NCBI GenBank assembly: GCA_900617105.1
Contig: UYFQ01000143.1
Coordinates: 1 to 64,000, forward strand
Direction of reading: 5' to 3'
Origin: Hydrurus foetidus
Taxonomy: Eukaryota
DNA length: 64,000 bases
Made by a program: the position numbers and the translations under genes. The number at the start of each line of letters is the position of its first letter. Position 1 is the first letter of the stretch. This document shows, in pieces, positions 30,401 to 52,607 of this stretch. Below the pieces are notes generated by a model. That model made no database searches and had not been told where the DNA came from. It saw only the letters and a list, made by a program, of their open reading frames with translations.

Positions 30401-32471
30401 GTCTACTTCGATGGTGCAGTGCACGTGACCGGGTATTGTCTCTCCAAGCTGAGGTTTGGAGATCTGAAGCATGAAGAAAAGTAGTACAGGTGACTTATTC
30501 GATATCTCGTCAATGTGGGTGTGAATCATCGTGCTCTTTCCTCACCTCATCGATGCTCACTGATACGATAGGCAGTGCCATTCTAGCCCATCCTCCGAAG
30601 AGCGTATTTCCCTTTAGGCCGCATCTCGGACCCATTCTTTGAATAGAGTCGATCAAGTCTTCTCTTATTTCAAAAGCACTCTCAAGTCGAAACAGCTCGA
30701 AGTTACGCAGGAGATAGTCATGTACGGTCAGGAACTGGAGATTTAGTTTGGGGAGTGCGAGAGGGCGGTCGCTGGAGTATGTGTTGCCGATAGGAACCTG
30801 GTATTGATCCCACAGCAGCTCTTCAGATGGATACAATGACAGTCTGTTGAGTGCTTCAAGCTGACTCCTCCTTGCTGACAATGAGTCAACCAGCACATCC
30901 ATGAGGAAGCTTCTCTGAGGGGTGTCCTCGAGGAACTCCACTGGGGAAAGGATCACGGAAGATTTAACTACCACTTCTTCACTGATGCTCGGTTCGGGTG
31001 CGCCACCAAACACCTCTACATCACGAGCAGATATTCGACAAAGTTTACTTGCGATGTCAGCGAGCTGCTGTGTTGTGAGCAATTGGAAGTGCTTCTTGAG
31101 AGTGTCCGACTTCGCAAGCTCTCCGGTCGAGGAGAAGACGAGATCTTTGAGAACGGAGTTATAGTGTGAGAAGGCGAGCGTCTGCAATTTATGTGTGCGG
31201 TTGTTCTGCACGGTCATCATGTCCTGCGAGCTCATAGCTCTTCCCGTTTGATCGTGCACCTCGAAGTGCATACACGCGTCGATCATACCCACTAGCTGAG
31301 AAAACAGTTTGCCGTCAGCGTGGTAGAAGATAGACGCACGCCTGCATCTCACAATTAGGTGCATGTCGTCTAGTAAAGTGTTTAAGAACCGTCTTGTTGG
31401 CAACTGAGAAAGAAGGTCCACGATGAACTCCGCGAATCTTTCGAGGTATCTCATGATGGGTGCGGCGGCCTTCGTGCGAAGGGCGTCAGTTGCGTCTAAA
31501 GATATGTCCTCGACGGTTTTCAAGAAGACTGTCACGAGACCAAATACCCAGGTGCTATCACTGGAGTCCACAACTTTCTTGAGGGCGACGGGTGTGGCAA
31601 TGGTGGGTGCTTCGGCTTTTTTGGCGGCACCTTTCTTCTTCTTCGCCGGACCTTCTGTTGATGTGGGGGGCGCGTCGTCCTTACTCTTTGAAGACGAAGA
31701 TGGCGCGGTTGACAAATCGGACAGGGCAATTTTTACTTGATTCTGTAGGAACTCCCAGTGTCTTCTGATCTGTGGTAACTTCTCCAACTCCTCTTTTCTT
31801 CTAGACTCGGTCAGACTACCCCACAGAGGAAGGGAAAAGTATCGTAAAGTACTGCTGCGAACGACAGGGTCCTCTAAACTCCGGAACATATTCACGAGGA
31901 AGTGAATGTAGATGACATACTGCTTGACGAGTTGTTCATTTTCCGCTGCGCACAGAGGTATATTGAACATGTCCGCCATCGATACAACCGCTTTGAAGAA
32001 AGTCTGAAATTTAGACGGGTCAACAGTCAAGACTTCAAAGACTGGAACACCCTCGCGGAATTTCTCGTTCACCATCATCAAAATGGAGAAAGTGTGTTCG
32101 AAGCAGCAGTCTTCGTCAAAATGTTTCCAAAGATAGTTTTCTAGATATCCGCTGAGTTCGAGTATCTGTAACCTTGTGTGCTCTCCGCTCAGCAACTCAT
32201 CTCTGAATAGCTTGCAGACCAGCTCCATGTCATATTTCCCTGCTTTAGGGCCCTGGAAATAAAATTGCGAGTTTTTAGAGGTTTGCTTCCTTATTTCGGT
32301 TGTTAGAATTAGAATTACCTCAGCTCCAGGAGCCCAGTATTCACTCGCGATCCGTGTGATATGGTGACCTACGATATCTGCGACACTGGAGGCACTTTTT
32401 TTTGCACTGCTGGAGCTGGAAGATTTTGCACTTCTGCTATTTGCCACATTGGGTGTTTTTGGGTCGCTCAC
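24405..32471 (-). CDS. AQR: Aquarius/IBP160 spliceosomal helicase, ~14 exons: ?-32319, 32252-30546, 30463-30343, 30253-30187, 30096-30005, 29795-29720, 29001-28914, 28556-28372, 27485-27407, 27165-26866, 26755-26060, 25807-25728, 25501-24852, 24763-24405
   Basis: [106 protein letters not shown]; all junctions GT-AG and in phase. The true 5' end is better represented near 38543. Confidence 0.93.
25591..25673 (-). ncRNA. Box C/D snoRNA, snR38-like (copies also at 23094-23180, 23816-23898, 29154-29240, 29876-29958, 35172-35258, 35894-35976)
   Basis: GTGATGA ... CAATTATCCCTGT-CTTA ... GTGATAA ... CTGA with terminal stem. Guide is complementary to conserved LSU ACAGGGAUAA. Intronic and sense to AQR. 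Confidence 0.85.
25908..25995 (-). ncRNA. Box C/D snoRNA, snR48-like (copies at 20622-20709, 27269-27356, 33277-33364)
   Basis: ATGACGA box C; guide TTTCTGACACCTCTTG complementary to LSU AGAGGUGUCAGAAA; TTGA D'; ACTGC/GCAGT stem; box D degenerate. Confidence 0.75.
27617..27707 (-). ncRNA. Box C/D snoRNA guiding SSU GGAUUGACAGAUU (copies at 20970-21060, 33625-33715)
   Basis: GTCCG-ATGATTT ... AATCTGTCAATCC-A-CTGA ... ATGA-CGGAC; 13-nt complement of a conserved SSU segment. Confidence 0.82.
27780..27850 (-). ncRNA. Box C/D snoRNA guiding LSU AAAGACUAAUC (copy at 21133-21203)
   Basis: GTCCG-ATGATTC ... GATTAGTCTTT-T-CTGA ... GTGA-GGAC. Confidence 0.75.
27971..28055 (-). ncRNA. Box C/D snoRNA guiding LSU AAAGACUAAUCGA (copy at 21320-21404)
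   Basis: GTATCCT-ATGACTG ... TCGATTAGTCTTT-CCGA ... GTGACGA ... ATGA-GGATAC; 6-bp terminal stem. Confidence 0.82.
28677..28846 (-). ncRNA. Unidentified ~170-nt intronic element, possibly an H/ACA-type RNA (copies ~28112-28273, 21465-21633, 22045-22213, 22617-22786 and in the 33-38 kb copy)
   Basis: Near-identical in two adjacent introns; hairpin GCAACT/AGTTGC, ATATTA (ANANNA) hinge, 3' ACA. Confidence 0.45.
29275..29387 (-). ncRNA. Box C/D RNA with complementarity to the SSU 3' end (copies at 23215-23327, 35293-35405)
   Basis: Canonical GTGATGA and CTGA ~105 nt apart; ACGATTTTAACTTCCTC follows box C. Confidence 0.6.
29559..29641 (-). ncRNA. Box C/D snoRNA candidate guiding LSU AGGAUUGGC (copies at 23499-23581, 35577-35659)
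   Basis: ATGATGA ... GCCAATCCT-CTGA ... TTGACGA ... CTTA; imperfect terminal stem; guide only 9 nt. Confidence 0.6.
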
Positions 32472-33019
32472 TGCTCCGAGAGGGTGGGCGCAAGTGGCAG
32501 AGGTTCAGCAGCCAAAATTGCCCTCTTCTGCTCCACCGGCACCTAGGCGCTAGAGTCTCTCTCAGATTTTCTCACGGGAGGAGTCGCAGAATGGCGGGGA
32601 TCAACATTGTCCTCTACATGATCCTATGAGGAGAAAGCGATTCTTTTCGAAAAATGAAGGGGGAAGTAAATCTTCTCTGTGGGCTAGTTGTAAGATACAG
32701 CGGGATAACGTGTGACTTCTACTACTTTTCCCTACCGGGAAATTCCCCCAACCATCGTTAGGCCCATATGCAAAATTGAAAAACATTGATGTAAGGATTG
32801 ATTGAATAAAAGTGTTTTTGACAGTGAAAGATACAGGCAACGTTGGATGCTATTTATTGCCGACTAACCGGGTTGATGCCAGACCGCACTGCCTCTGAAA
32901 ACATCAGGGGTAGCCATTCATCGATCACGTTATCAGGGGGTCTCCATCTTCTTGCAAAGCGACCAGTGTTTCTGACGGGTCCATTCAAGTTCACTGCCGT
33001 CCTCTGTCAGTGGTCGAAA

Positions 33020-36000
33020 GACCGCCTCTGAATCCGAGTCTTTGCGCTTGTTGGAAGAAGAGGGAGTGGACTTCCTCATCTCTATCTTGTAAGGGGGTCC
33101 GGGTAGAGGAGTGGTAGGTGAGGACATTAGAGCGGCACGGAGGCATCCTCAAATATCACTTTGCGTCCAGGAAATGACTGGCGGCAAAACGGAAATATAC
33201 TGGATGAGAAAGACGCCTCAAACATGAGATATTGAGAAGGAAATATGACGGCAATGATTGTGTCGTGGAAAATGGGACTGCTACGATAGAATGTGCGTTC
33301 ATCGAGGTACTGTGATACAACTCAAACAAGAGGTGTCAGAAATTACCGATTTCGTCATGGCAGTGAGGGAGATACATCTACGACATAAGGTACGGCATCA
33401 TTGGCTTCAATTACCTCGGTCACGTGGTCTGCGTCCAAAAAGGAGTCCACATAGTCAGACGTCTCGCTGCTTCCGTCACCCGCACGGATGGATCTGCGCG
33501 AAGTTGGAATTGCGAAGAAAAGGGTCAGTGACGATATCAAGTTATATGAATGTACATCAAGTTAGAAGATTCACGAATGGCGCGATACCATGCAGTGTAG
33601 AATAGATTTTATTCACCAAGTCCAGTCCGTCATACATTTTGTAAATAATGTTTTCAACAATCGGACGAATCCTTTCAGTGGATTGACAGATTATTAAGTT
33701 TTGAAATCATCGGACACACAGGAAAATAACGACCAAAACAGGCGTTCATGCATGTTGCATGAATATTGAGCAGGCATGAGGGTGATTGTCCTCACTTATT
33801 AATGGCATTTATCGATCAGAGGATTCAGAAAAGACTAATCATAATTGAATCATCGGACGCAACGCACATGCTTGCTGTTCCATATTCAGGTCACGCACAC
33901 ATGCACGTATGCACGAAGAGGAATTGTACGGTCAAATAGATAGATAGATAGATAGATAGATAAATAAATAGATAGACGGTATCCTCATCATAAATGTTTT
34001 TTATGCTCTCGTCACGTACTTGTGATATCGGAAAGACTAATCGATTTTACAGTCATAGGATACATCGCAGGAAGGGTATGTATACTCTACTACAATCAGG
34101 TGCATTAAGACAGATGGAGTACGATGCGATGATGTGATGTAATCGGAGCGTTGGGATAGAAACAAGCATACGGCTGGTGAGCTACACTTTTTTCAGCTTT
34201 CGCCTCTGTGTGGTAATATTTCCGGCCAAAGCAACTAATAACCCTCATAGACTGGGGGTGCGTTTAACGATCGGAGTTGCACTTCACTTCAACATTCGCC
34301 TCATTTCATTGTGTGTGTCCTATCTACTTGCAAGCGCATGGTCTCTACAATACTCTCTTTCTCCCTCCCTTTGTCTCCCTCTATTTCACCTGTAGTTAGC
34401 TGCCTTGGGGCTGCCGTACCCGAGAAACACATCGTGCAGCCATGACGGTATGGCTCGGCTCAGGGCTGGCGTGTTCATCAAGTCGCGGATGGTCTCGAGC
34501 ACGGCCTTGAAGTTGTTCTCTTTCGGCTTGCGACGCACCAAGAGATTCAGACGACTGTAGCAGTCGTGTCCGTCCTGATCGCGCAGAAAGGATGATTTTA
34601 AGTCAGTGTGTGCAGTTGTGGGGAGTATCGGGATTGGTATGTATTCAGGTTCAAATAAAAGCGGGCGGCGGCGAAGAAAAGGTAGCAAATGATACGATGT
34701 GATGGGATGTGATGTAGGGAGCGTTGGGATAGAAACAAGCATACGGCTGGTGAGCTACACTTTTTTCAGCTTTCGCCTCTGTGTGGTAATATTTCCGGCC
34801 AAAGCAACTAATAACCCTCATGGACTGGGGGTGCGTTTAACGATCGGAGTTGCACTTCACTTCAATAATTTGTGTCCCAGTTTCTCGTGCATATTCTCCC
34901 TTACTTATGAGCTTCGCACCAGTCTACTCACCCTCATGTCAGCGTAGTATTGGGCAGGATCTAGTCGGACACGAATCCTCCTCTTGTTGCCCACTCGACC
35001 GCTACTTCTCTCATCGGGCCTGAAGAGGAGGAAGGAGAAAGATTGACACAATGGAAGCTCAGTCGATAAAAGAGGGAGGCGGGTCATTGCTGAGGTGACA
35101 CGTGGCAAGTGGCGTCGCGTCGACGTCACTTGAATGAGTAAGTATGAGTGGAACAAAGTAATGCATAGGTGCTGTCGGCTCAGGTTAGTTACGTGGTTAT
35201 CACCAGACACGTTTGTGTTGTAAGACAGGGATAATTGTTGGAATATCATCACCGACAGCTCGTATACAGACGTCGTCAATAGAAGAAGGTAAGGTCAGGC
35301 AAAGCAGTGCTGTGTCGTATCTTCGCACGGTCGGTTCACTGTAAAGTGTCACCATACTCACAAGTGAAGTGAGGAAGTTAAAATCGTTTCTCACATCATC
35401 ACCGATTGAATGCCATGATGAGCAGTGCAGTGCATGTAGGACATGGTTGCAAGACAAATATATCATGTGGAGAGACATGTTCAGATGTGGAGTAGGATCG
35501 ACAAGAAAAATATGAATGGGAAACAGAGAGCAGTGCGGTATGGTGTCGCTGCTTGGGAGGGGTGGTTGTAATGGGTGAGTCCTAAGTTTGTGGATAATCA
35601 GCTTTCGTCAAGAAGATTCAGAGGATTGGCATCTGATTGTTTCTGTCATCATCGGATTCACTCACACTCCCAAAATCACACTTATATATTGTCAGCAAAC
35701 AGCGCCACTCTTGTACTTTCTCAGTGCACGGACTTACTTGAACGGGTCGTTCAGCACCACATTGTCTTCGTCGCGCATCTCGAACACTTCGCCTCCCCTC
35801 ACATATTTCACGCCTTCAGTGAACAGAGAAGTTGTTGGTATCATTTAGTTGGGGGCATGTATGACAATAGTAACAAAAGGAGTAGTTGCGTTCATCGGCT
35901 CAGGTTAGTTACGTGGTTATCACCAGACACGTTTGTGTTGTAAGACAGGGATAATTGTTGGAATATCATCACCGATATAGGGTATCGCATCAAAGGCATT

Positions 36001-38564
36001 GTTCTGTCGCCTCTGAACTCACCATATCGTGTTGTGAAATTTAGATCTTCTTCCATTTTCTCCGCGTAGTTGTTCTTCTTGGGAACTTGACCCATGGACA
36101 TCTCCCTTCTCTCTCTGGAGTGCACATCGCGAGATGAAGTTAAATTTTGCTGACGATCTCACAACAGATACTTCGGTAAGGCTTGTTATTGTGATGTGAC
36201 TTACTTTTCAAAGTCCTTGAGATTGGTGGATGCGTCTGGTTGGGGGTCTTCTATCCCAACCAGGAACAACACTGTATGAAAGAAAATAATTTGAGAAGTG
36301 AAATGCTTTATTCAGTGTCAAGCGGTGCAAGATAAGTTTATTGATCGGGCATCTACGCACCATCGTGATCGCGCAATCCTTCCCACTCCTCTCGGATAAC
36401 TCCTGTGAATCTAGAGATGTCTACTTCGATGGTGCAGTGCACGTGACCGGGTATTGTCTCTCCAAGCTGAGGTTTGGAGATCTGAAGCATGAAGAAAAGT
36501 AGTACAGGTGACTTATTCGATATCTCGTCAATGTGGGTGTGAATCATCGTGCTCTTTCCTCACCTCATCGATGCTCACTGATACGATAGGCAGTGCCATT
36601 CTAGCCCATCCTCCGAAGAGCGTATTTCCCTTTAGGCCGCATCTCGGACCCATTCTTTGAATAGAGTCGATCAAGTCTTCTCTTATTTCAAAAGCACTCT
36701 CAAGTCGAAACAGCTCGAAGTTACGCAGGAGATAGTCATGTACGGTCAGGAACTGGAGATTTAGTTTGGGGAGTGCGAGAGGGCGGTCGCTGGAGTATGT
36801 GTTGCCGATAGGAACCTGGTATTGATCCCACAGCAGCTCTTCAGATGGATACAATGACAGTCTGTTGAGTGCTTCAAGCTGACTCCTCCTTGCTGACAAT
36901 GAGTCAACCAGCACATCCATGAGGAAGCTTCTCTGAGGGGTGTCCTCGAGGAACTCCACTGGGGAAAGGATCACGGAAGATTTAACTACCACTTCTTCAC
37001 TGATGCTCGGTTCGGGTGCGCCACCAAACACCTCTACATCACGAGCAGATATTCGACAAAGTTTACTTGCGATGTCAGCGAGCTGCTGTGTTGTGAGCAA
37101 TTGGAAGTGCTTCTTGAGAGTGTCCGACTTCGCAAGCTCTCCGGTCGAGGAGAAGACGAGATCTTTGAGAACGGAGTTATAGTGTGAGAAGGCGAGCGTC
37201 TGCAATTTATGTGTGCGGTTGTTCTGCACGGTCATCATGTCCTGCGAGCTCATAGCTCTTCCCGTTTGATCGTGCACCTCGAAGTGCATACACGCGTCGA
37301 TCATACCCACTAGCTGAGAAAACAGTTTGCCGTCAGCGTGGTAGAAGATAGACGCACGCCTGCATCTCACAATTAGGTGCATGTCGTCTAGTAAAGTGTT
37401 TAAGAACCGTCTTGTTGGCAACTGAGAAAGAAGGTCCACGATGAACTCCGCGAATCTTTCGAGGTATCTCATGATGGGTGCGGCGGCCTTCGTGCGAAGG
37501 GCGTCAGTTGCGTCTAAAGATATGTCCTCGACGGTTTTCAAGAAGACTGTCACGAGACCAAATACCCAGGTGCTATCACTGGAGTCCACAACTTTCTTGA
37601 GGGCGACGGGTGTGGCAATGGTGGGTGCTTCGGCTTTTTTGGCGGCACCTTTCTTCTTCTTCGCCGGACCTTCTGTTGATGTGGGGGGCGCGTCGTCCTT
37701 ACTCTTTGAAGACGAAGATGGCGCGGTTGACAAATCGGACAGGGCAATTTTTACTTGATTCTGTAGGAACTCCCAGTGTCTTCTGATCTGTGGTAACTTC
37801 TCCAACTCCTCTTTTCTTCTAGACTCGGTCAGACTACCCCACAGAGGAAGGGAAAAGTATCGTAAAGTACTGCTGCGAACGACAGGGTCCTCTAAACTCC
37901 GGAACATATTCACGAGGAAGTGAATGTAGATGACATACTGCTTGACGAGTTGTTCATTTTCCGCTGCGCACAGAGGTATATTGAACATGTCCGCCATCGA
38001 TACAACCGCTTTGAAGAAAGTCTGAAATTTAGACGGGTCAACAGTCAAGACTTCAAAGACTGGAACACCCTCGCGGAATTTCTCGTTCACCATCATCAAA
38101 ATGGAGAAAGTGTGTTCGAAGCAGCAGTCTTCGTCAAAATGTTTCCAAAGATAGTTTTCTAGATATCCGCTGAGTTCGAGTATCTGTAACCTTGTGTGCT
38201 CTCCGCTCAGCAACTCATCTCTGAATAGCTTGCAGACCAGCTCCATGTCATATTTCCCTGCTTTAGGGCCCTGGAAATAAAATTGCGAGTTTTTAGAGGT
38301 TTGCTTCCTTATTTCGGTTGTTAGAATTAGAATTACCTCAGCTCCAGGAGCCCAGTATTCACTCGCGATCCGTGTGATATGGTGACCTACGATATCTGCG
38401 ACACTGGAGGCACTTTTTTTTGCACTGCTGGAGCTGGAAGATTTTGCACTTCTGCTATTTGCCACATTGGGTGTTTTTGGGTCGCTCACTGCTACCGAGA
38501 GGGTGGGCGCAAGTGGCAGAGGTTCAGCAGCCAAAATTGGCATTTCTGCTGCGATGGGAGGCAC
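33020..38564 (-). repeat. AQR: Near-identical tandem copy of the AQR 5' part (exons 1-10), period ~6018 bp; contains the probable start region (ATG at 38543)
   Basis: ORF 36528-38564 equals ORF 30510-32471; junction 32480-33020 is a mosaic. Confidence 0.85.
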
Positions 38565-39249
38565 ACTAGGCGCGCGAGTGGCCGAGGTTTTCGACGGGAG
38601 GAGTTGCAGAATAGGCTGGGATTGTGATTGTGGGAGTACATTTCCTATGAGGAGAAAGCGATTCTTTTCGAAAAATGAAGGGGGAAATAAATCTTGTGGC
38701 TCTGTGGACGCTTTTACCGTAAGCTACCCAAAGGGATAACGTGTGATTCTACTACTATTCCCTATGGGGAAATTCCCCCGTTTATTTCCTGCGTAGGCCC
38801 ATATGCAAAATTGAAAAAAATTATATAGGCAATATGCACCGTTTTCAATGCTGGTGCGTATACCGTCGCCGACCCTATGTTTGCGGATTTCCTGTGACTT
38901 AGGACCCTTTTACGTCCAATTTTTAGTTACCATGAAAACATCAAACAGTAGCCATTCATCGATCACGATATCAGTCAACTCTCCATCTTCTTGCAAAGCG
39001 ACCAGTGTTTCTGACGAGTCCATTCAAGTTCTCTGCCGTCCTCTGTCAAAAAATTCGAAAGGTGAAATTTGATCGAAAAAATCGTGATGCCGCGACATCA
39101 ACCACTTTTTGACACAAGCATGTTTGGGACTCAATAATGAGAAATCGTTTGGCTCGAGCAACCTCTAGCGACGATTTATGCGTTTGTTAGTACATCTAGT
39201 TAGATAATCGATGTTGTCCGGCAGGCCTGCATATCTGCATCGCTCCTGA

Positions 39250-41912
39250 ATGCGAATTTCTAACTATTATATCCGATTACTGCAGATGGTATCTCTATCG
39301 GTAGAATTGTGCGCTTTCTCAGTCGCCATAGCGCTCGTTTGTCGTCCTAGTAAGCCTGCAAATCACCAGTGGTCGATCGGTTCTCTTAGCGCTGAGCTGC
39401 GGATGATGGATCACTACGAAGACCACAACTTCAGATTCGATGCGTTGGCCTTGCATCAAGGTTTGAGCATCTTCAAGAAGACCATCGAGCAATTTGGTTG
39501 CAGCGTCATTAGTATTAGCTCCAAGGGAGAAATGAGAACGGAAGCTTTCATGGACTTGGCGGCAAGGAGCAGGGGAACAGATATAAAGTTCGGGACAAAT
39601 CATCTGAATGATGATAAGTCACGTGACTACTTAGTTACAGAAATTACAAGTACTGCTAACACATTGCTAAGTAAAACATGCAAAGTAGATTCAAAGTATG
39701 TGTCAATCAGTGAGATTTACGGTTTATTATGGTTAAATCAGCTGGACGTCAATAATGCAAAGTCTGAATCGTTCAAACGGAGAAAGAAAGGTGACGAAAT
39801 CGGTGAGAGGCAGATGGGAAGATACGCAAAAGAAGTATATGAGTTCGTGTCAAATAGCATTTGCGCTGCTAATGAGTCACCAACAATATACATCAATGCT
39901 GCAGTAAAAGAATCTGCATCTCGAAGCGCTGGTGCTTTAGAAGCTGTACGGCGAAAGATATTCGACGACGATGACGTTGATGATACTGTGACAATATCAC
40001 AGATAGTAAACCATCCCGCTGTCCACCAAATGCTGGGAAAGTTTCCTAATAGAAATATAAGATTCAAATTGCATGAGATACAGTTGGTTATCTCACTATT
40101 TGATACTATAATTACAGCTCGCAGTGAGTTAGAGGGTGAAAAATACAGAGCTAATAATATTGTGACAGCTACTCACACCAAGGAAATTTTAATTAAACAT
40201 GCAAGATATTCTGAACTTGTTGTGGAAACAATAGTGAGGTGGGTAGTCAAAAGGGATGTGGTGAAAAAAACATGTGGGAGAAAGATCTCTGTGGAATTCG
40301 AGGCTGATGTCTGGGGTAATTTAATGATATGTGAATTTGAGCAAAAAATGTAAGTATCATCAAAATTCACCGTGATACATCATTTTATTACATCAAATAA
40401 TCTGTTATCATTTTTGTGAGTGATCTGCATCTTACTATGCAGTAATGTATATGCACGTTTTGCTAACTCAAATACTAAGATATCGAACGTACGTACGTGT
40501 GTCTATCTTGATAGGTTGAGGGTGTCCTCACCAACGTTCCACGTATCCTGGTCAGTGTCGTTTACACTTATGCAATAATCGAACAAGCTGCAAAGACTGT
40601 TCAAGCGAGTGATAGGTGGATTAATGATGATAAAATACAAGCTCTTGAGTTCAGTTCAAAATGGGTTCGAAAATTTTTGACGCGGGCAAACATGCGTAGA
40701 AGAAAGATAACGACTGATGATAAAAATGTACCATCAGATGAAGAAATAAAGAGGATAATGGAAATCGGTCAAACAATGTACAAAGACTTTGGACACACCA
40801 GAGATACAACAATAAATATGGATGAAACAGCTTTTACCTACGCGATAGGCCCGGAATACATGTACTGTCCACCCGACCAACAACGCGCTCAGAATATTGG
40901 TATACCTAATACGATGCTTCGCATAACAGCGGTTGTTGCGGTAAGTGGTAATGGTGAGTTTGTGCCTTTATTCATTATCATTAAACACTCAGTTAGCTCA
41001 GAAGAAAGACCAGACCAATCAGGGATGAGGGTTATACAGGACCTCCATAAAAAGAATAAAGGATTTGGTGTAGATGATGAATGGGATCTAATTAAGTGGA
41101 CAAAAGAGTTGACAATAAAAGGTGTGACAAATACTCATGCATGTTACTATATTATTAACAAAGTTACAGGTCATGTTATAACTAGTCAGTTCAAGGCATG
41201 GAACGATACAGTTAGAATGATCATGTGGTTAGAAACTGTCGTAAAACCACTGAAATCAAGGCTAGGAAAGTTAATGATATGGTTTGACAATTGTGGATGC
41301 CACAAAACAAATATGGTTGATGAGGTAATCAGTGAGTTAGGTGTACAAATAGCTTGTTTGCCCCCCAATATGACAGGTGTTCTACAAGTATTAGATTTGG
41401 TTGTTAATGGGCCTCTGAAAGCACACACAAGAAATTTGAGAGGAGCTAGAATAGTGGAAAGTTTCCAGGCTTTTAAAAAAAAGTACGAAGAAGAATCAGC
41501 AAAAGATGTACATGAACGTACGTTACCTGTCTTTCAACCCCCTAAACCCGAGATGCTCCAAGGCATCCAAGATCTATTCGATCTTTTAGCTGGTGGATTC
41601 AAAGAGATAAAATTTGCTGAAGGAGTAAAAAGGTCATTCATTAGTACAGGTTGTGTTCCATTAGATGATAGCGATGTGTCACAACCAATATTTCAACCGT
41701 ACTCAAAACATAATTTATGTGGCACAATGAAGGTTATACCTACTGGGACTTCTGCAACCTCCAGTCATAACAGCGTTGACTTTAGTGACATTGCGTTGGA
41801 TGAGACAAATGGAGAAATACCTGCGATCAATTTTATGTTAGAATATGATAGTGCCATGTTAGAATACGATCATGAGATAACAGAGGCAATGAATTTTATA
41901 GAGTGTTTGTAA
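39250..41912 (+). CDS. pogo transposase, two exons (~39250-40349, 40515-41912)
   Basis: FSSKWVRKFL..R (CENP-B-type HTH), NMDET, WFDNCGCH-35 aa-QVLD (DD35D). The splice junction is 1 nt out of phase at an A6 run (error or mutation). Confidence 0.88.
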
Positions 41913-41927
41913 TTTAATATCGCCAAA

Positions 41928-42297
41928 TTGCACTCCACTTTTCGTATTTTTTTCTCACTAATATGTTACACATACGTATAGGACATTGATTTCAAGAAAA
42001 AATAATAATATTGCACGTACGGTTTACATGTACTCACTGCCACTAAAACGGTCATCATCTCAGCAGTAGTTATAGCGATAGCCTAACACATAACTTGCGC
42101 TCTACTTTTCGTATTTTTTTCTCACTAATATGTTACACATACGTATAGGACATTGATTTCAAGAAAAAAAAATAATATTGCACGTACGGTTTACATGTAC
42201 TCACTGCCACTAAAACGGTCATCATCTCAGCAGTAGTTATAGCGATAGCCTAACGCACAACTTGCACTCTACTTTTCGCATTTTTTCTTCACTAATA
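41928..42297. repeat. 167-bp tandem repeat (~2.2 units) between the two convergent genes of the pogo element
   Basis: TTTTCG(T/C)ATTTTTT recurs at 41939, 42106 and 42273. Confidence 0.9.
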
Positions 42298-42417
42298 TAT
42301 CTTATACAAACATGTATTATAAAAAACAATTATTAATTACATGCAAGTAATTCGGTTCAAACTGAATAAACCAGTGCTTATCAGTCAAGTCACAGAAATG
42401 CAGGGTACAAGAATTAG

Positions 42418-43223
42418 TCAGTACTGTGACTGAGAGTCACTGAAAAAGGATGAGAGTTTTAGATTGAATTCAGTTGTATTGCTACTGACTACAAAAATTC
42501 TCAATGCGTAACCATTTCTGGCGTGCGATGTGTCTCCATCATACAAACAGCAGTCAAAAGATACAGAAGACAACGTATCAGTTTCGATTAGCATATCTAA
42601 TATGGGAGCAAGCAATGCCGCCCATTCCCTCCGCAGATTTCCTATGTGCTCACCAGGGTCATAAAACCCTTTGTTACCGCCCTCCATATCATCAGGGGCG
42701 AGCACTTGGATACAGTTCGCATCTAATAATCAGCAAAAAAAAACATGGTATCAGTAAGAGCACAATAATTAACGGGTCGTAAGTCTACAGCACAAATGAC
42801 TGTGGTAGCAGATAAGTTGTTGTTGAGAAGTGAGGGATGTCTCGGTAGAGTGCTAGGTGTTCAGCAGTTCTGACTATACAGGGAATACTGAGGAACTCTT
42901 CGTCGAATACTGACGTAGCATTTAAGCTGCTAGAAACTATAAGTAAGAGAAATAGAGAAAATTTGGGCAGCGATTCACCTCGCACCTTATCTAGTGTAAA
43001 TTGTCAGCATCAATCAGCATTCAGAAAATAAGCATGTACTTGGCAGAAAATATTCTTGGTGAGGACATCAAGTAAAGTTCACTTCCACTTTGATAGGACG
43101 CTCACCGTGCAGATTGTTGAAGTTACGCTTCAACCTGCAAGTAGACCCTTTCTTGACCTTGATTCTCTTATCCAAGGCGAAAAGCCCACTCGCTGTGCAA
43201 TCGATAGTCGCAATCAGCGGCAT
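42418..43223 (-). CDS. Stand-alone HIRAN-domain-like protein, 140 aa; exons 43223-43106 and 42722-42418
   Basis: G|GTGAGC...TTTTTGCTGATTATTAG|AT splice gives MPLIATIDCTASGLFALDKRIKVKKGSTCRLKRNFNNLHDANCIQVLAP..GEHIGNLRREWAALLAPILD. Confidence 0.75.
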
Positions 43224-44447
43224 GACTAAAAAACAAGGTAATTGGAGGACATGTCAATTTTGAAATCAAGTAGACCTCGTGGCCTGCCGGACAAAACGGA
43301 TTCTGTTTTTATACATTAATCTTGAGGTCGATTAGCTGACAGTTCTGCAGATTGGGCTATCCCTTAAAAAATATTCAGCTGCTTACGGACCGTGTCGAAA
43401 TTGATGATGGCTCCGTGCAAAATCTCCTGCGATGCGATCAGGTCTTCAGCGAATAGAACCTGTTGCACGAGGAAAGAACAAAACTTAAGTGACGGAATGC
43501 ACCACTCAGAATTGCAGGAGAAGCAATTTTGAATTTGTAGTTGTGCTTGGAGTGCAGAAGGTCCAATAAGTATGATCTCCTATTCCTCGGACAAAAAGAG
43601 GTCCTATGTCACGGGTATACTCTCAACTCCCCCGCAAACATAGGGTCGGCGACGGTATATGCAACATATGCATGCAACGCACTTACGGTACGTTCACTCG
43701 TAAGTACTTCGCGGCGTGCTGGCGGTATGTGGCCAGCCACATACGGCCAATTCTACTGTCTTAAAGCGAGCGGACTACTCACTAGTTGTAAATTGTAAAT
43801 TGTGAAGGTTATAAACTCGTAAAAATATGCTGCCTCTGAGGAAAGTATCCTCATCGTTGTTGATCACAGTAAAACTGTGGCATTGTTGCTAAACGTTGAA
43901 GACGATGTTGTCAAATGTCAACAGTTCATAATTAATCAAACTCTGCACAGCAATGACTTGCAGTTGTGCAATTAAGCCTAATATAGAGGGGAAATGGTGG
44001 AGAATAGCAGGAATATGCATTTTGCATATGTAGAACGTCTTGCATATATATTCGTATATATATGCATTTATACGGTTTGCATATATATGCACATATGCCT
44101 ATGGGCCTACGCAGTTTATTTCTCCCTAGCACCGGTTGCACGATCGTCCGACCGGGTTCACACTCAAAGTGGAATATTTGATCCCGCCAAATGGAACTCA
44201 ACATTGATAGCTCGAATCAATCGACATTCAGCACAATTACACAATATGGAATCCGCCAGCTGGACACAAGGTGTTGTCTGCTCGACCAATTCGGCCATGG
44301 TGAGTTTACTGGTGACGTTTTCGCATCATCAAATCTCTTCTGCGACTCGCTAGTTGAGTCTGAAATCTTACATCCCTAAAATTATTTCATCATCGGTGGC
44401 CATTTCTCCACAACCAGAGAAGTTGGCGGTGATTAAAGCACTGATTC

Positions 44448-47400
44448 TTGCTCCATGAACTGCCTAGAAACTTTTATAATATGACTACTTGTATACTTGC
44501 GAACACCCAAAACCAAAAATTTGATCCCGCCGACCTACATATTTTTCATCCTCAGATTTCTACTGTCAACTCGAGAGAGGACAGTACCTTTAGAGTCACT
44601 TTAAGTGAGTTCGATTCAGTGATGAAGAGGATTATTATCTGCTTATCTACTGAGAACTGTACAGAAAAATTTAAGAATTCAGTGGCTATTTCGACAAGAC
44701 AAATAAGTCTATTCCTTTGTAGAGAGTGCGAGGAATTTGGTAGGACAAAAGAAATATATGATGCACTAATGAGTTATAAAAAAGCTAAGAAAGCAAAATA
44801 TGAGAATTTGTTGATAAGCGGGAATTTCTATTTCGAAGGGAGAAACAACTATAATACAAAAATGATTGTGCTAACAGTAGGCAATGGCAGTACAATCCTC
44901 AGTTCACAAATTCCGCAAGAATGGTTAAGAGATGATTCCATAGTCGTAGACAGGGAAGTAGAAGATCATTCTGCAATCGTAGAGGTAGATTTAGCAATTG
45001 GGGCGAAGAGGAAAATAGCGCCAAGCAGGGGTCCTGGAAATAAGGATTTCAAAAGTATTAAACCAGCAAATGCTTTATCTAAAATGCTATCTGATACTAT
45101 AATAGAAATCATGAATAATAAACTTAATGATTATAGTGTAATTAAAAAGAAAAAAGTGAGAGAAGGCATTATTCTGAATATAAAAAAGCAATACAATTTG
45201 CATGACAGGAATTCGGCAAACTACAATAAGATTAATAATCAAATAGTGAAGTCGCTAATAGAATATCTCAGCGGACTAAAAAATCGTGGTGGCAAATATG
45301 AACTTGTAGAATCCACGATTGAAATTTTACTGGCAGCTGTATCGGTCGAAAGTTCGAATAGTACCGAAGTCGGGAAAACTCTTGGAATATCAAGGAAAAG
45401 AATATCGGCCGCGAAAGAAAAAAGGATGTTATTTAATTCAGCTATTGATAAAAAAAAATTGGAAGAATATCAAATAGAAAAAGATGATATCATTGAAAGT
45501 GACTCCGAATCTGGGGAGTCAAGTGGTAGTTCAGAAATTGATGAATATGAATTCCATTACAATAGTGAAGACGATATGATAAGCGATACTTCATCTGATG
45601 AGAGCGATGTGGACAAAGACGATATGGAAATTGGCAATTCTGATAATGGAAATAAAGAACTAAAGAAGAAAGAGAAAAAGAATATTTTTTTCCTCGCTAT
45701 ATCACCTAAAATACGGAAGACAAGGAAAGATAAGCTAAATCTCGATGTTGTTCGCGACTTTTGTCACGATATATGTCGACTTGATACATTCGCCACGGCC
45801 AAAATATTTGTGCACAACTACGATGGGTCGCGATCCTACCATCAAGTGCATGTTAAGAGTCAGTCTTTGAAAGATTATTATAAGGCATTTCAAAATACAA
45901 GTGAATATTACAATTGGCAAAACGAAAATATGAGAACAACAATTTCTAAAAAAAATACGATTAAAACTATGAGGAAGCCTACGATAAAATTTCGCACCTT
46001 TACAAATGCATTCTGTCCGTGCTGTCTTAACCAGAAACAACGCGACTGTGCGAACCACATTCAGGTTAATTTACTAAATGCATTAAAGGCATTGGGAAAC
46101 TTAATGTCTATCCTCCAGGCCGTCCACCCGGTAGGACGTTTGTCCGACCGGTAGGACAATTTTGACCCATATGAAATATCTCTCAATTTGATGAGTTCGA
46201 TGCAATATCTCAGTGAATTCAGCAGCTTATGATGTGCTGATCAAAGGCATAACTTCAGGTCTCCAAACGGACACGAATTGCCTGAGATATCGTAGAAGCT
46301 AGCTGGTCAAGTAGGCACTTTGCAGCACTTTGGCGATAAGAGATGAAAGGCCTCAAACTCGATTCTAGAGTCGAAGGCATCGCTAAGAGGTATCAAGGAT
46401 GGGATGGTATCATCATTGATATCATCCAAGAGGGGAAGAAAAAGTTGTATAAAGTTCGGTGGACAAATGGCAGAGAAATTCTACACGCAGCGCAAGCGCT
46501 AAAATTATGGGGTGCCCCAGTTGTCGTCAGAGGTCCAAACTTGGAGCAGGCAGCATTTCGAGCAGTTCCGATTGCGGCCCCTCGTGCTGTCGACAATTGG
46601 GAATATAACCCCGAGGTTGATGGGGATGACGATGCTGGCAGCGTGAATACTGGCAGTCAAGACAGCAGGTGCTCAAATTTTTGGCGATAATTGTGAAATC
46701 AATTTTTTTGCAAATTTGATCCACCTGATGATCGTCCTGCAACAAACAGCATATCCTTGGAGAGCGACAGGACAGTGGAACAGAATGCAATCCCTGATGG
46801 GCCCGGCGGTGCAAATTTTGGTGGGGAAAACGATTTTTTTAGGGAAGAAAACATGCCTGACGCACCATACCAAGCTGAAGCTCCCGTTGTACCACCGATA
46901 AATCCTCTTCTGAGACCTCATGGACAAGTGTGGAAGGATGAAGGGGAAGTGACCATTGACGTTGGAATGTCAAATCGGCGCACGAGGTTACTTTGGCCGG
47001 GGCAATTGAACCAGCTATATGATGGAGTCGCGAAGAAGGAGTTGGAGTACTTCAAACTAATGTTTCCCATGTCAGTGATGCAAACATTGCTGACTCACAC
47101 CAACGAGCAGCTTGGACGTTTCAATAAGTCGACCACAACATCGCAAGAAATGTTGCAATATTTTGGGATACGGCTGAACATGACGCTTGACAAGATAGGG
47201 TGTCCGATAGTAGATTTCTGGATGACGGATCAAGAGGAGGGATCAACATTTGTTCCACCTAATTACTGTCGCTTCGGTATGTCGCGTCATCGGTTTCAAG
47301 CACTGTCTCGTTGTATGCGTTTTGCAGATTACGATGAAGGCGTCATCAGTGAGGTAGTAAAGCTTATTCAAACTTCCCCTACTTTACTCCACCACATAAC

Positions 47401-50400
47401 ACAACTCTTTTTCTATCAGGACCCTTGGACCCCTATCCGTCCATTCATCGACGCATTCAACAGAACCAGAGAGAAGAATATCTATGCTTCGGGAAACATG
47501 GTAATTGACGAATGCATGAGCGCGTGGAGAGGCTTCGAATCGTTCGAGTGTATCTTTGTCTTACCACACAAGACCAAGATTATCAGGAAACCTGAGGGTG
47601 TTGGAGCGGAGATCAAGAGCTTGTGCGACGGCGAGTCAGGAATCCTTCTTCATTTGGAAGTAATGGAAGGAAAGGATGCCCAAGCAGCTAAAGAATTCAG
47701 TGACGCGTATCCATCATCTATCGCTCTTACCCTACGGATCACGAAGAAGTACTTCGGTACTGGCATCACTGTCCACGCTGATAGTGCCTTCGGCAGCGTA
47801 TCATGTGCTGCCGCACTAGCTTCTCGCGGACTGTATTTTATGGGGTGTGTCAAGACAGCTACAAAGAAGTTTCCAAAGGGGTTCCTAAACTTGTGGGCGC
47901 AACCAGACAACGTAGCAAGGGGAAGCCACAAGACACTGAAGTCTACTATTCTATTGGAGGACAATGTCACAGTGATGCCTATATTTGCTGTTGCTTGGAA
48001 GGATTTGACCGTGAAATAAATCGTTTGTACGAGAGGTCTCACTGCCGTACAAGGGAATCCGTCCACGCGCCATAGACGAAGAATTGTCGAGATGGAGTAT
48101 GGTCATGAGAATGACAGGTACATGCTTGAGATTCCGCGTCCTCAGGCGATCGAGATGTTCTACTCGTGCTTCTCGAATATTGATGTTCATGACTATTACA
48201 GGCAAGGCTCGCTTGCATTCGAGAGAAGCTGGAGCACCAAAACCTGGTGGCACAGACTCTTCATGACAATGTTCGGAATGATATGTACAGACGCATACTT
48301 TGGTTACCGGCTGGAATACAACAACCGCAACAATGACGACGAGGGTTCCATGCTTACATACAAGAAGTTTCTATATCGTCTCGCATATCAGCTGATACAT
48401 TCTCATGATGAAGTGAGAAATCTGAGAAGAAGGCGGGGGGGGTGATGACTCATCAAGTGATGATGATGATCGTCCCCATCAAGCTCACAACCTGAGACCA
48501 CTGAGTCAAAGTGCACATTACGAGAATCTCAAGAATCCTGGAAACAAAAATAAGCGGGCTGTGAGGAGATGTCATATCAAAGATTGCGGACTCAAAACTG
48601 CCTACTATTGTGAACAATGCAGTAGCCTAGTACACCCAATAAAGTATGTTTGTGTGTGCAACCCTTTTCATAAACGAGGATCAACTTGCTACTCAACACA
48701 TTGTGAGAAAGATGACGTGTAATTAACTCTAAACAATAAGATTCAATAGTTTCTGATGAAAAAACGCCTTAGAATTCTACCAAAAAATAAGATTCTACCC
48801 AAATTATATTGTCCTACCGGTCGGACAGTGCCCATGTCCACCGGTCGGACAAACAGCTGGAGTGTAGACATTAAGACGTTTTCATGGCATATCAGTTCCC
48901 ATCAAGACATGTGGATGCAATGGTCATAGGAATATGAATTACTTACGATGCGCAACATCTTTGGGCAATTTCTTGGAAGCAATACATTGCCCGAAAACTC
49001 CATATTCATATTTATCTGCGGATAGTGACACATCAGAAAGTATTGAAAATCAGCAAAATATGAACATAAAGGCTTCTGCTGAAAAAGATGAAAAATTCAA
49101 TGAATGCACGGTAAAAAAAGAGAATTGGAATGCAAAGCGAGAGAGCGCTGCAAGACAATCCAAAAGTATTCCACTACTTAATTGGGGACCATTATTCTGT
49201 TGTTACTCGAAGAAATGTGCTTACCAGAATTGTAATGAATGTGGTATCAAGAAATTCTTCCACGAATCCAACCTCTGTAACATTGAAAGAAATGCCGACA
49301 TTGAAGTAATAGTTAGGAAGTATGAAAATGTCCAAGGAAGATCGCGAGGTATGCAAATGGAAGTAGTTGAAGTGAAGATGAATGGGGATCAATTAATGGA
49401 CCACTTAATTCATTGCGCACTACTAGCTGTGCCACATGAATGGAATGTTACTTGGAATGCACATGCTAGAACGATCTGTGTCAATACATCAACGCCAAAA
49501 GTGTTGAATCTGATGACAGACTTTTCAGCAGTGCTAGATCATGACGTACAAGACAAGTTGAATACTGCTATACCTTGTCGTTCAAATCAGTGTATATTTT
49601 TGGCGACCCATAGTCCAAGGGATGTCACACTTGAAAATTCTGTTAGTAAGAGGGTACAAGAGAATGACATATGGCATTTCTGGTCAGCGCAAGGTGGTGT
49701 ACTCGAGGCAAACAGTTACTATCACAGCGTCTGTACACGGCATATAATGGAAAAGTACTCTAACTTGCCACTCAATAGGGTAAACATTTTTACCGATGGA
49801 TGTGCGGAGCAATATAAAAGTCGTCGTAATGCGTATTTTGTGGCAGCACTAGCAGGAGATACAGGCATGACAGTTACACATAACTTTGCTCCTACTGCAT
49901 CGTTCAAAACAATGGTAGATGGACAGGGAAACGTCACTAAAGCTTTTTACAGAAAATTAGAAAGGAGTGAGGAAGAAGGGACAAGATGCCCAACAACATA
50001 TCAGCTGTTCTTGTTATTTGCGACGAGGTACCCTCTCACTCCTGCAGATGTTGAAGATTCGAAAAAAAATCCAATGACAAAAACTGGCCGCTTCCATCGC
50101 TACCTTATCGACGTTAGTGATGCTACACCTGAAATGATACGTAGAGCAGCAGTAGAAAAAGATGTCATTATCACGGATTATATTGGAGAAAGATGGGATG
50201 CACCAGCATTAAAAGGAATCAAGTCGCTATTCAGCTTAGTTGCACAAGTAGAAGACGGAAAAGTCAATTTTCAGAGCAGGGAACATACGTGCTTTTGTAA
50301 GCACTGCATCGAAGGGAACTTTGCAGGCTGCCTCCACGCTGACATATCTGGAGCATTAAAGACAGAATTGTTTATAAAGTTGCCATTCAAGGAAGTTTCT

Positions 50401-50895
50401 TTGAAGAAGAGCTGTGTAAATGAAGACATACTGAGGATTAATTTCTTTAAGGGTGCAATGCCATTAAACGGTGCAACGCCAATTATGATAGCAATTAACA
50501 GAGAAAGACTCGATGTAAATGACGAGCCGTTTGTACTAGGCATCATGACTAGAAACATAAAAGAGACAACGAAAGAAACTGAGTGTGAGTACACAATATC
50601 GGGTACAAAAAGCAAAACTGTCATAAAAAAAGGAAAATGGTGCGTAACAATAAAAATGTTATTCTGTAAAAACGTTGTTGAAAATACATATTATATTCCA
50701 AATAAAGCAAAAGAGTTAAAAATTCCAATTTCTGATGTATATTATCCCGGTGAAGTAGCGGACTTATCACGAGAAAACTACTTAATTTGTACAGTTCAAA
50801 GTGAAGTACAGGACAACAATCAAGTCAACAATGTGTATATTATAGATAGCGATAGCATCGAAACATTAAGAAGTTCTATGACAAATGAAATATGA
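44448..50895 (+). CDS. ~1200-aa transposase split by a piggyBac insertion (44448-46104 joined to 48875-50895); start codon uncertain
   Basis: Removing the insert plus one TTAA restores frame (..ALGNL-RRFHGIS..NMNYLRC). Motifs TDFS, FTDGCAEQYKSR, HNF....FK..VDGQG..K and Cys clusters. Confidence 0.8.
46105..48870 (+). mobile_element. piggyBac-family transposon
   Basis: TTAA at 46101-46104 and 48871-48874; imperfect 14-bp TIR TGTCTA..CTCCAG; perfect 20-bp subterminal IR TGTCCGACCGGTAGGACAAT. Confidence 0.93.
46343..48722 (+). pseudogene. piggyBac transposase; introns 46669-46749 and 47354-47419; nonsense codon at 48017 and frameshift at the G-run ~48435
   Basis: MSRHRF, VIDECM, RKPEGVG, ADSAFGS, NIDVHD, WWHRLF, and a C-terminal Cys-rich domain CHIKDC..YCEQC..C..C...H. 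Confidence 0.88.
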
Positions 50896-52607
50896 AGGCT
50901 TAGATATAAATAACATTTTGTAAATGCAATTATCTTCACTAATGCACTTGGAATCTTACTCACTTTGTTCTACTCAAGTTCCTCGATTTCGTATACGCTT
51001 CTATAAATAATGGTTATCGATTACGTTATCGAATCCAGTAGAGATGATGGTAGTATAAGATCGGTCGGGAGGACATCGAGTCCAGTTACTGCAGTAATAC
51101 TAAGTTTGCTTCGGTGATACAAACCTTATTAAGAGCACCGAATAGGTAAGCAGGTAAAGCTAATAAGTAAGCAAGAAAGAAAAGGACTTGACATAGACGG
51201 TCATTTCTGAATCATCTAATTGCTCTGACAGCAAATCTCGTGTCAGTCTGAGCAGACCATTGCCTCCTCTCTCGAGTTGACAGTAGAAATCTGAGGATGA
51301 AAAATATGTAGGTCGGCGGGATCAAATTTTTGGTTTTGGGTGTTCGCAAGTATACAAGTAGTCATATTATAAAAGTTTCTAGGCAGTTCATGGAGCAAGA
51401 ATCAGTGCTTTAATCACCGCCAACTTCTCTGGTTGTGGAGAAATGGCCACCGATGATGAAATAATTTTAGGGATGTAAGATTTCAGACTCAACTAGCGAG
51501 TCGCAGAAGAGATTTGATGATGCGAAAACGTCACCAGTAAACTCACCATGGCCGAATTGGTCGAGCAGACAACACCTTGTGTCCAGCTGGCGGATTCCAT
51601 ATTGTGTAATTGTGCTGAATGTCGATTGATTCGAGCTATCAATGTTGAGTTCCATTTGGCGGGATCAAATATTCCAAAATTGGTAGCACGATCGTGCAAC
51701 CGGTGCTAGGTTCTCCACACCTTGGCGAACATCGAGGAACATGGTCTATAATAAAAGGTATTGTTATCATACGTTTGGTCGCGCTTGCGCGCCTATGGCT
51801 TCACGATCCATCCCCTGCCCCCGCTCTCTTCATTCTCAATCGAGGTTTGCGGTCAGGGGGAGGACCGTGGGTCAGATTCCACTTCACAATCTGACATAAG
51901 CATTTGTATGCCCCATGCCAAAAATTGGCCATTTTTAGCAGGATTTTGCCTACCATTTTGCCAGTATTCGAAATATCATCTCAAAACATCTTGGACTTGA
52001 AATCTGAATATGAGAAACGATCAGGTCAGTGGCCAAACGTCCAAGAACACAATAATATAAGGTGTCGTGGCTTGCAACGCCCGATGATATGAGATATTAC
52101 AGTACGAACGGTTGACGCCCGTACTGATATCACGAGCTTATGGTTGAATTTCCCTCCGGTATACCCGGTAAAATTTTAAATTTCACGGTATAGTAAATTG
52201 GCTGGCAGATTTGTACGGATTTACGGTCTACAAATTGGTGAAAATAGGCCTAATATTGGCCTAATATGACTTCTGACGAATTGGCACAAGTTCTGGATAG
52301 TTGCCAGAAGCAGCTAATTCTCGCTTTTACGTTCTTTGCCAGAAAGGCTCTTTTTTTTGCCAGGTGTACAGATGCCTAATCTGACATGCAAGCGGAGCAG
52401 AAATCCAGCTCGCGACCAAGCCCCGTGAGCCAGCATTTTTTTTTCCGTATAAAAATTTTTCTTACACGGTAACGCACACCGGACGGACAGTAAGATGTTC
52501 CAGTTCCCTCCAAATTGAGATGATCATTCAAAACCTCGCAACAACATCAGCTATCACTCAACACATCTCCTGTCATTTTTCTACCTTCGAAGCACAACTT
52601 AAACGTA

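What the first reader, a model, noticed from the sequence alone, without database searches (positions are those of the whole stretch)
42418..43223. pogo transposon carries a second, spliced HIRAN-domain gene
Seen: between perfect TIRs and convergent with the transposase, two exons join in phase into an open 140-aa protein. The junction itself builds the motif L.R...N.HD.N.I.V, followed by IG.L.R..AA.LAP.LD. Established: this pattern is typical of HIRAN, which in HLTF/Rad5 binds 3'-OH ssDNA ends at stalled forks; pogo elements normally encode only a transposase. Inference: an accessory factor that could couple transposition to replication forks or protect 3' ends, or simply a captured host fragment. 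The ORF track shows only the second exon.
Basis: partly seen in the sequence, partly recalled or inferred. Interest (0 to 1): 0.8.

Follow-up and report, generated by a model that had tools for sequence, protein, structure and literature searches.

The report
Pogo transposon with HIRAN helper gene
A 4.8-kb cut-and-paste jumping gene of the pogo type carries, besides its transposase, a second conserved two-exon gene whose protein is predicted to fold like the DNA-end-binding HIRAN domain and likely helps the element handle the DNA ends it cuts, a design not found in the papers searched.

Summary
A 4,795-bp TA-duplicating pogo element (38861-43655; DD35D; 24-bp perfect TIRs; empty site seen in other runs) carries a convergent two-exon gene, open for 140 aa across a GT-AG intron (43105-42723). 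Splicing is inferred from conservation: 6 distant relatives read through the intron in frame and keep both exons; 37 of 38 relatives fit the same phase-1 acceptor. A model of one read-through relative matches the HLTF HIRAN domain (Z 14.9, rmsd 2.0 A, 117 residues). The gene forms a family of 68 clusters (29-94% identity). At least three diverged element families keep it between transposase and right TIR, so it is a selected accessory gene, not a recent host fragment. The counterpart of HLTF's 3'-OH-reading Asp is kept, but other pocket residues differ, and the family adds a 12-residue insert and invariant Cys/His. Most likely it caps the short 3' overhangs made by excision (inferred, about 50%); the replication-fork link is untested. 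This copy's transposase lacks one base relative to other copies. No paper searched holds both 'HIRAN' and 'pogo'. This scan's notes report the same design in other genomes.

The parts
38861..38862 (.). TA target-site duplication, left
   Evidence: Sequence; empty-site joint 38860->43656
38863..38886 (+). left terminal inverted repeat, 24 bp perfect
39250..40349 (+). transposase exon A (start at 39250 or 39403 not settled; no credible Pfam family); this copy is one A short near 40342, which puts exon B out of frame
   Evidence: ORF; junction test; extra A in contigs of 4 of 4 runs; Pfam
40350..40514 (+). transposase intron (GT..AG, 165 nt), inferred
40515..41912 (+). transposase exon B: end of a weak HTH_Tnp_Tc5 match and a DDE_1 domain, DD35D (codons at 40821, 41286, 41394)
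   Evidence: Pfam DDE_1 E 1e-8, over cut-off; HTH_Tnp_Tc5 E 0.12-0.6; spacing
41924..42298 (.). 167-bp tandem repeat, 2.2 copies, between the 3' ends of the two genes
42418..42722 (-). HIRAN-fold gene, exon 2
42723..43105 (-). 383-nt phase-1 GT..AG intron, position conserved across the family (inferred from homologs)
43106..43223 (-). HIRAN-fold gene, exon 1
   Evidence: matches the N-termini of 6 read-through relatives
43632..43655 (-). right terminal inverted repeat
43656..43657 (.). TA target-site duplication, right

Best explanation
This is a two-gene pogo transposon whose second gene is a conserved, element-borne protein predicted to have the HIRAN fold, and it likely works as a 3'-end cap for the short single-stranded overhangs that the transposase makes. 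Shown: element limits, gene structure in the DNA, family conservation, and linkage to transposase and TIR in diverged families. Predicted: the HIRAN fold (on a 37%-identical relative). Inferred: splicing and expression; binding of the last two bases and the 3'-OH as in HLTF; action on the excised element ends and/or the donor break. There it would shield the ends from nucleases or quick end-joining and favour repair from the sister chromatid, which restores the element at the donor site and raises copy number.
For: Fold: the AlphaFold2 model of relative P0118 (pLDDT 76.6; only the intron-derived residues 40-70 are under 50) matches HLTF HIRAN by Foldseek (E 2.9e-5) and VIA-align (Z 14.9, rmsd 2.0 A, 117 residues, HLTF 57-174; next unrelated fold Z 4.9). 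The Atlas's own model gives HLTF/Rad5 HIRAN first. The window's spliced protein scores 14.3 bits on a profile of 13 bacterial HIRANs against 3.2 (exon 2) and 0.0 (exon 1); 0 of 500 exon-1 shuffles reach it; profile-profile probability 92%. Selection: 68 clusters at 29-94% identity and 95 representatives (one a cadherin false hit). DNA likeness of diverged families stops at the splice sites (43104, 42724). Linkage: single contigs join the transposase end (41896-41899) to the cargo exons, and exon 2 to the right TIR, in at least three families; P0191 holds a transposase piece (50% to the window's, E 2e-30) and a family piece in one frame. Pocket: the D94 counterpart is Asp in 37 of the 38 relatives (of 68) that reach it; the N91 counterpart is Asn in 7 of 7 exon-1 sequences. 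HLTF HIRAN holds a 3'-terminal dinucleotide (PMC4666394, PMC5773155, passages). Sleeping Beauty and mariner excision leaves 3-nt 3' overhangs on element and donor, repaired by end joining or homologous recombination (PMC7827188, passages).
Against: The fold was modelled on P0118, not on the window's own protein. The Y93 position is His, and in direct register HLTF R71/Y72 fall on Phe/Ala (an invariant Phe15 may stand in for Y72). The window's subfamily has Asn where 61 of 66 relatives and HLTF have His (position 68). A 12-residue insert (25 versus 12-13 residues between the Asp and the I-G motif) and invariant Cys/His residues not seen in the 13 bacterial HIRANs used could mean a changed function. 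There is no helicase or nuclease partner in the protein. Most pogo elements move without such a gene (PMC7386202 section 8). P0191 has the two pieces on the same strand, unlike the window, and is one contig.
Confidence: 0.5

Rival explanations
1. Fork-coupling factor: the protein binds nascent 3' ends at stalled or reversed replication forks and brings the transposase there, so that excision happens behind the fork or insertion at it.
For: This is the natural substrate of HLTF HIRAN (PMC5773155 passages). The best structural matches are eukaryotic HLTF/Rad5 domains, aligned over the whole domain including the last helix.
Against: It needs a second contact, to the transposase or the element, for which there is no evidence here; no insertion-site data were available.
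Confidence: 0.17
2. Decoy: the free HIRAN domain competes with host HLTF/Rad5 for 3' ends and so blunts a host restriction of transposition.
For: HLTF restricts HIV-1 through its HIRAN domain (PMC6511057, passages). A standalone domain without helicase is the expected form of a dominant-negative competitor.
Against: No paper seen reports HLTF/Rad5 restricting DNA transposons. The family's own invariant residues (C43, D103, H106) suggest a function beyond mimicry.
Confidence: 0.12
3. Protein-binding regulator: the fold has been reused, perhaps with a Cys/His metal site, to bind and tune or inhibit the transposase rather than DNA.
For: Altered pocket, insert and invariant C43 (41 of 41), H65 (65 of 67), C97 (61 of 67), H106 (65 of 66). 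Bacterial HIRAN proteins beside HipA kinases are predicted antitoxins (PMC11706625 passages).
Against: The Asp and Asn counterparts of the 3'-end pocket are as conserved as any residue, which is hard to explain without DNA-end binding.
Confidence: 0.15
4. Neutral passenger: a captured piece of a host Rad5/HLTF gene, or a host gene family that lies in this element by chance.
For: The closest structures are host-type HLTF/Rad5 domains. Genomic context is known for only about four families, not for most of the 68 clusters.
Against: Only 15-19% identity to HLTF; open frames and own motifs over 29-94% divergence; exons conserved where introns do not align, and linkage kept in diverged families; longest contigs short (median 1.6 kb, 62 of 68 under 5 kb), as for repeats.
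Confidence: 0.06

Closest known systems
pogo superfamily, DD35D groups Passer and Fot/Fot-like (Gao et al. 2020, PMC7386202)
   Same: TA duplication, short TIRs (40 bp or less), DDE_1 transposase with DD35D and a weak HTH_Tnp_Tc5, length within 1.2-5.2 kb.
   Different: The survey describes one or two ORFs encoding transposases and never mentions HIRAN (0 occurrences in the main text); here a second unrelated spliced gene lies convergent inside the TIRs. The group within pogo was not determined by a tree.
HIRAN domain (Pfam PF08797): human HLTF, yeast Rad5, standalone Lactobacillus lp_0118 (PDB 3K2Y)
   Same: Predicted fold over the whole domain (Z 14.9 HLTF, 11.4 lp_0118, 10.2 Rad5); Asp and Asn of the 3'-end pocket kept.
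   Different: Standalone in a eukaryote and carried by a transposon; 12-residue insert; invariant Cys/His set; Y93 is His and R71/Y72 are not clearly kept; 15-19% identity.
Multi-gene Tc1/mariner relatives of ciliates: TBE and Tec
   Same: Extra ORFs inside the TIRs; the TBE ones are under purifying selection and proposed as accessory factors (PMC12242761, PMC7325037, passages).
   Different: Those are DD34E elements with a zinc-finger/kinase protein, a small unknown protein or a recombinase; none is described as HIRAN in the passages read.

Membership tests
pogo superfamily | DDE_1-type transposase with DDxD triad (DD29-56D; DD35D in Passer and Fot/Fot-like) | tested here: met
   Pfam DDE_1 35.5 bits over cut-off 22; 35 residues between the last two Asp
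pogo superfamily | Terminal inverted repeats and TA target-site duplication | tested here: met
   24-bp perfect TIRs; empty-site joint in 2 of 4 runs fixes a TA duplication
pogo superfamily | N-terminal HTH_Tnp_Tc5-type DNA-binding domain | tested here: inconclusive
   E 0.12-0.6, under cut-off, for the half in exon B; the domain is split by the intron
pogo superfamily | Placement in the pogo clade and in a named group by a transposase tree | not tested
   No reference transposases were on hand
HIRAN domain (PF08797) | Six-stranded barrel with two helices, superposable on HLTF HIRAN | tested here: met
   Model of relative P0118: Foldseek E 2.9e-5; Z 14.9, rmsd 2.0 A, 117 aligned; Atlas. Shown on the relative, carried over by homology
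HIRAN domain (PF08797) | Score over Pfam's curated cut-off (24.7 bits) | tested here: inconclusive
   Exon 2 alone 14.9 bits; 43 of 52 mostly partial members hit at E<=0.1, best 6.8e-5; 1 of 16 longer representatives (P0175, 31.3 bits) passes. The whole spliced protein was not scanned against Pfam
HIRAN domain (PF08797) | 3'-OH pocket residues of HLTF (D94, N90/N91, Y93, Y72, R71) | tested here: inconclusive
   D94 and N91 counterparts kept; Y93 is His (as in 6 of the 13 bacterial HIRANs); R71/Y72 register uncertain
HIRAN domain (PF08797) | Binds 3' single-stranded DNA ends | not testable with these tools
   Needs a binding assay

The most novel reading that the evidence does not exclude
A widespread, undescribed lineage of two-component pogo transposons has domesticated a host fork-repair domain (HLTF/Rad5-type HIRAN) as its own end-capping factor, steering repair of the excision break toward copying the element back and making cut-and-paste transposition replicative in effect.
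Probability: 0.3. Interest if true: 0.85.

Novelty: new variant of a known kind. Interest (0 to 1): 0.7.

Why it matters
Tc1/mariner-type elements are held to need only a transposase (PMC12242761, passage). An old, selected second gene with a 3'-end-binding fold points to a step at which these elements act on their own breaks or on host repair. It makes a standing question testable with a 140-aa protein: how a cut-and-paste element tips donor-site repair in its favour. It is also a case of a transposon taking over a host DNA-repair domain, the reverse of the usual domestication, and a possible add-on for mariner/pogo gene-transfer tools.

Tried and rejected
No RNA holder listed among the sequencing runs, so the junction could not be looked for in RNA; no spliced joint appeared in the contig runs laid. 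The model of exon 2 alone (pLDDT 65.6) gave no match in Foldseek or the wide VIA search (best Z 4.9); it lacks the first strands of the barrel. phmmer of P0129 against PDB sequences gave only chance hits; the exon-2 profile gave HLTF HIRAN alone but at E 0.13. Exon 1 alone has no Pfam hit. Context searches failed: the metagenome scan returned one spurious bacterial locus (L001); the genome scan one spurious 19-residue match (L002); viral scans with the cargo, the transposase and the TIR gave none. A search for longer forms (257-2000 aa) found none among 7,995 scored candidates, which is weak evidence; P0181 is a cadherin-repeat false hit. No whole genome is held. Rfam gave nothing in 38500-44500. 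dN/dS could not be computed: the read tables list only part of the differences. Of 7 listed exon differences, 5 are silent when taken one at a time, one is N36D (all runs carry D) and one is R20G, which shares its codon with a silent one; this is too few to weigh. No complex prediction was run, since no protein-protein binding is claimed. The host lineage was not determined.

Full report
1. Observation. The minus strand from 43223 to 43106 and from 42722 to 42418 joins over a 383-nt GT..AG intron (phase 1) into one open frame of 140 aa. The intron has a GTGAG donor, a T-run and a branch-like CTGAT before TAG. Openness alone does not prove it: 23 donor/acceptor pairs in this stretch give an open frame.

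2. The element. A 24-bp perfect inverted repeat lies at 38863-38886 and 43632-43655, each flanked by TA. Contigs in 2 of 4 runs join 38860 to 43656, skipping 4,795 bp; this is the empty site and fixes a TA duplication. The + strand holds a transposase in two exons (39250-40349 and 40515-41912) with Pfam DDE_1 over its cut-off, a weak HTH_Tnp_Tc5 and DD35D spacing. These features fit the pogo superfamily as set out in PMC7386202 (section 8 read in full; passages). The window's copy is one A short near 40342; contigs of all 4 runs carry the A, which by arithmetic puts the exons in frame, so this copy is either dead or has an assembly slip. Twenty listed runs from 14 studies hold half or more of the sampled words, mostly freshwater, sediment and air metagenomes; six were laid. 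In runs X1 and X11 the contigs over the cargo gene have depth 926-1,110 and those over the transposase 1,067-1,471, against 160-168 on the flank. Depth is no copy number, but the cargo is as amplified as the rest of the element, about six-fold. The host has spliceosomal introns and an Aquarius gene next door; its lineage was not determined.

3. The gene is old and selected. Exon 2 finds 16 clusters by itself and 68 with a profile, at 29-94% identity; the all-protein search finds 95 representatives (one is a cadherin false hit). All are unnamed or hypothetical but for one stray label, and lie on short contigs (median longest contig 1.6 kb; 62 of 68 under 5 kb). Conservation starts exactly at the exon-2 boundary. 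In 37 of the 38 clusters that extend upstream of it (30 of 68 start later), the residue before the Asp is one that a YAG phase-1 acceptor can spell; background is 0.51, though the clusters are related and not independent. Six relatives happen to read through the intron in frame and carry an exon-1 match: P0118 and P0129 (2 of 68; E 2e-10 and 1e-12) and P0209, P0165, P0159, P0218 (4 of 85). Their exon-1 parts end at the same place, followed by the Gly that a G|GT donor spells. A loose end in runs X1 and X2 reads, in register, D-N-P-H followed by a GT donor at the same position (translated by hand). Splicing is thus inferred from conservation, not seen.

4. It travels with the element. In one search single contigs of diverged families join the transposase end to the cargo: 41899 to 43104 (X6; the exon-1 piece has 43 differences in 184 bases), 41896 to 42689 and 41899 to 42501 (X6), 41899 to 43251 (X2); others join exon 2 to the right TIR (42724 and 42609 to 43632; sides of 26-27 bases, so weaker). 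By depth these are at least three families. Their likeness to the window stops at the splice sites (43104, 42724), as purifying selection on exons would give. P0191, from a subfamily about 33% identical to the window's protein, holds a transposase piece (50% to the window's over 104 residues, E 2e-30) and a family piece (81% to P0131) in one frame; it is one contig and has the pieces on the same strand. Context for most clusters could not be fetched.

5. It has the HIRAN fold. Exon 2 alone is weak (Pfam E 0.023), but HIRAN is the recurring hit: 15 of 17 members at E<=1, 43 of 52 at E<=0.1, and P0175, which lacks the insert, passes the cut-off (1 of 16 longer representatives scanned). On a profile of 13 bacterial HIRANs (14 matches, one not extracted), the spliced protein scores 14.3 bits against 3.2 and 0.0 for its exons; 0 of 500 exon-1 shuffles reach it. 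Removing the intron-derived stretch lifts P0118 from 3.9 to 13.2 and P0129 from 4.7 to 17.8 bits, and the family profile meets the bacterial one at 92% probability. The model of unaltered P0118 is confident except over the intron-derived residues 40-70 and matches HLTF HIRAN (Foldseek E 2.9e-5; Z 14.9, rmsd 2.0 A, 117 residues, with lp_0118 at 11.4, Rad5 at 10.2 and the next fold at 4.9). The Atlas's own model ranks HLTF/Rad5 HIRAN domains first, which suggests an ancient origin from the eukaryotic repair gene (inference; no tree).

6. How it most likely works. In HLTF, D94 reads the 3'-OH and Y72 and Y93 pinch the last two bases (PMC5773155, passages); the cavity holds one dinucleotide and N90/N91 were the residues mutated to test it (PMC4666394, passages); R71 is also mutated to disrupt binding (PMC6511057, passages). 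Using the HLTF stretch printed, Asp40 is D94 (37 of 38), Asn37 is N91 (7 of 7), His39 is Y93, position 68 is the His of the G-H-L motif (His in 61 of 66, Asn in the window's subfamily) and position 71 is Lys/Arg in 64 of 67; that these last two touch DNA in HLTF is recalled, not read. R71 and Y72 have no clear match, though Gly13 and Phe15 are invariant in 7 of 7. The family adds a 12-residue insert and invariant C43, H65, C97, D103, H106. Sleeping Beauty and mariner excision leaves 3-nt 3' overhangs on both the element and the donor, repaired by end joining or homologous recombination (PMC7827188, passages); that pogo does likewise is assumed. A free 3'-dinucleotide binder carried by such an element therefore most likely caps these ends (0.5). 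Rivals: fork coupling (0.17), a regulator of the transposase (0.15), a decoy for host HLTF/Rad5 (0.12), neutral cargo (0.06).

7. What is known. Tc1/mariner elements typically encode only the transposase; ciliate TBE and Tec are the named exceptions (PMC12242761; PMC7325037; passages). HIRAN is known standalone in bacteria and tied to phage replication (PMC4666394; PMC3417536; PMC11706625; passages). Searches of the held library: 'HIRAN' + 'pogo', 0 papers; 'HIRAN' + 'transposase', 12 papers, 11 listed, none on such an element by title and abstract start; 'HIRAN domain' + 'transposable element', 5, likewise; one search returned 2,355 papers, apparently swamped by words that begin with 'hiran' (25 listed); two searches listed nothing on this design. 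The two pogo surveys have no 'HIRAN' in their main text. I did not open their supplements, where element tables might note a second ORF, and subscription journals and repeat databases were not searchable. Unchecked notes of this scan describe pogo or mariner elements with a HIRAN-like partner in other genomes; none matched this DNA or P0118 by sequence.

8. Verdict. Real, and well supported as a two-gene pogo element with a selected HIRAN-fold accessory gene: a new variant of a known kind. The function is inferred. Interest 0.7.

Noticed in passing
window 41924-42298: The 167-bp tandem unit between the two genes has summed contig depth in the tens of thousands in runs X1 and X11 (flank about 165) but 0-30 in the metagenome runs: possibly a satellite amplified from, or caught by, this element in one strain.
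   Followed up: no
window 38789-44114: The pogo element sits inside a roughly 530-bp non-coding element with 15-bp terminal inverted repeats and an 8-bp target duplication (38781-38788 / 44115-44122), itself multi-copy by depth.
   Followed up: partly
window 44125-51710: An element with 457-bp terminal inverted repeats whose long ORFs (44445-46154, 48868-50895) have no credible Pfam hit, interrupted by a piggyBac-like element with DDE_Tnp_1_7 at about 46100-48875.
   Followed up: no
window 26499-38822: A 6.3-kb tandem duplication at 96% identity that includes part of an Aquarius (spliceosomal helicase) gene, ending at the outer element.
   Followed up: no
window 39250-40349: Transposase exon A gives about 315-367 residues ahead of the helix-turn-helix with no credible Pfam family, a long N-terminus for a pogo transposase.
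   Followed up: partly
protein P0191: One reading frame that fuses a pogo transposase piece to the C-terminal half of a HIRAN-family gene on the same strand; a rearranged copy or a family with tandem gene order.
   Followed up: partly
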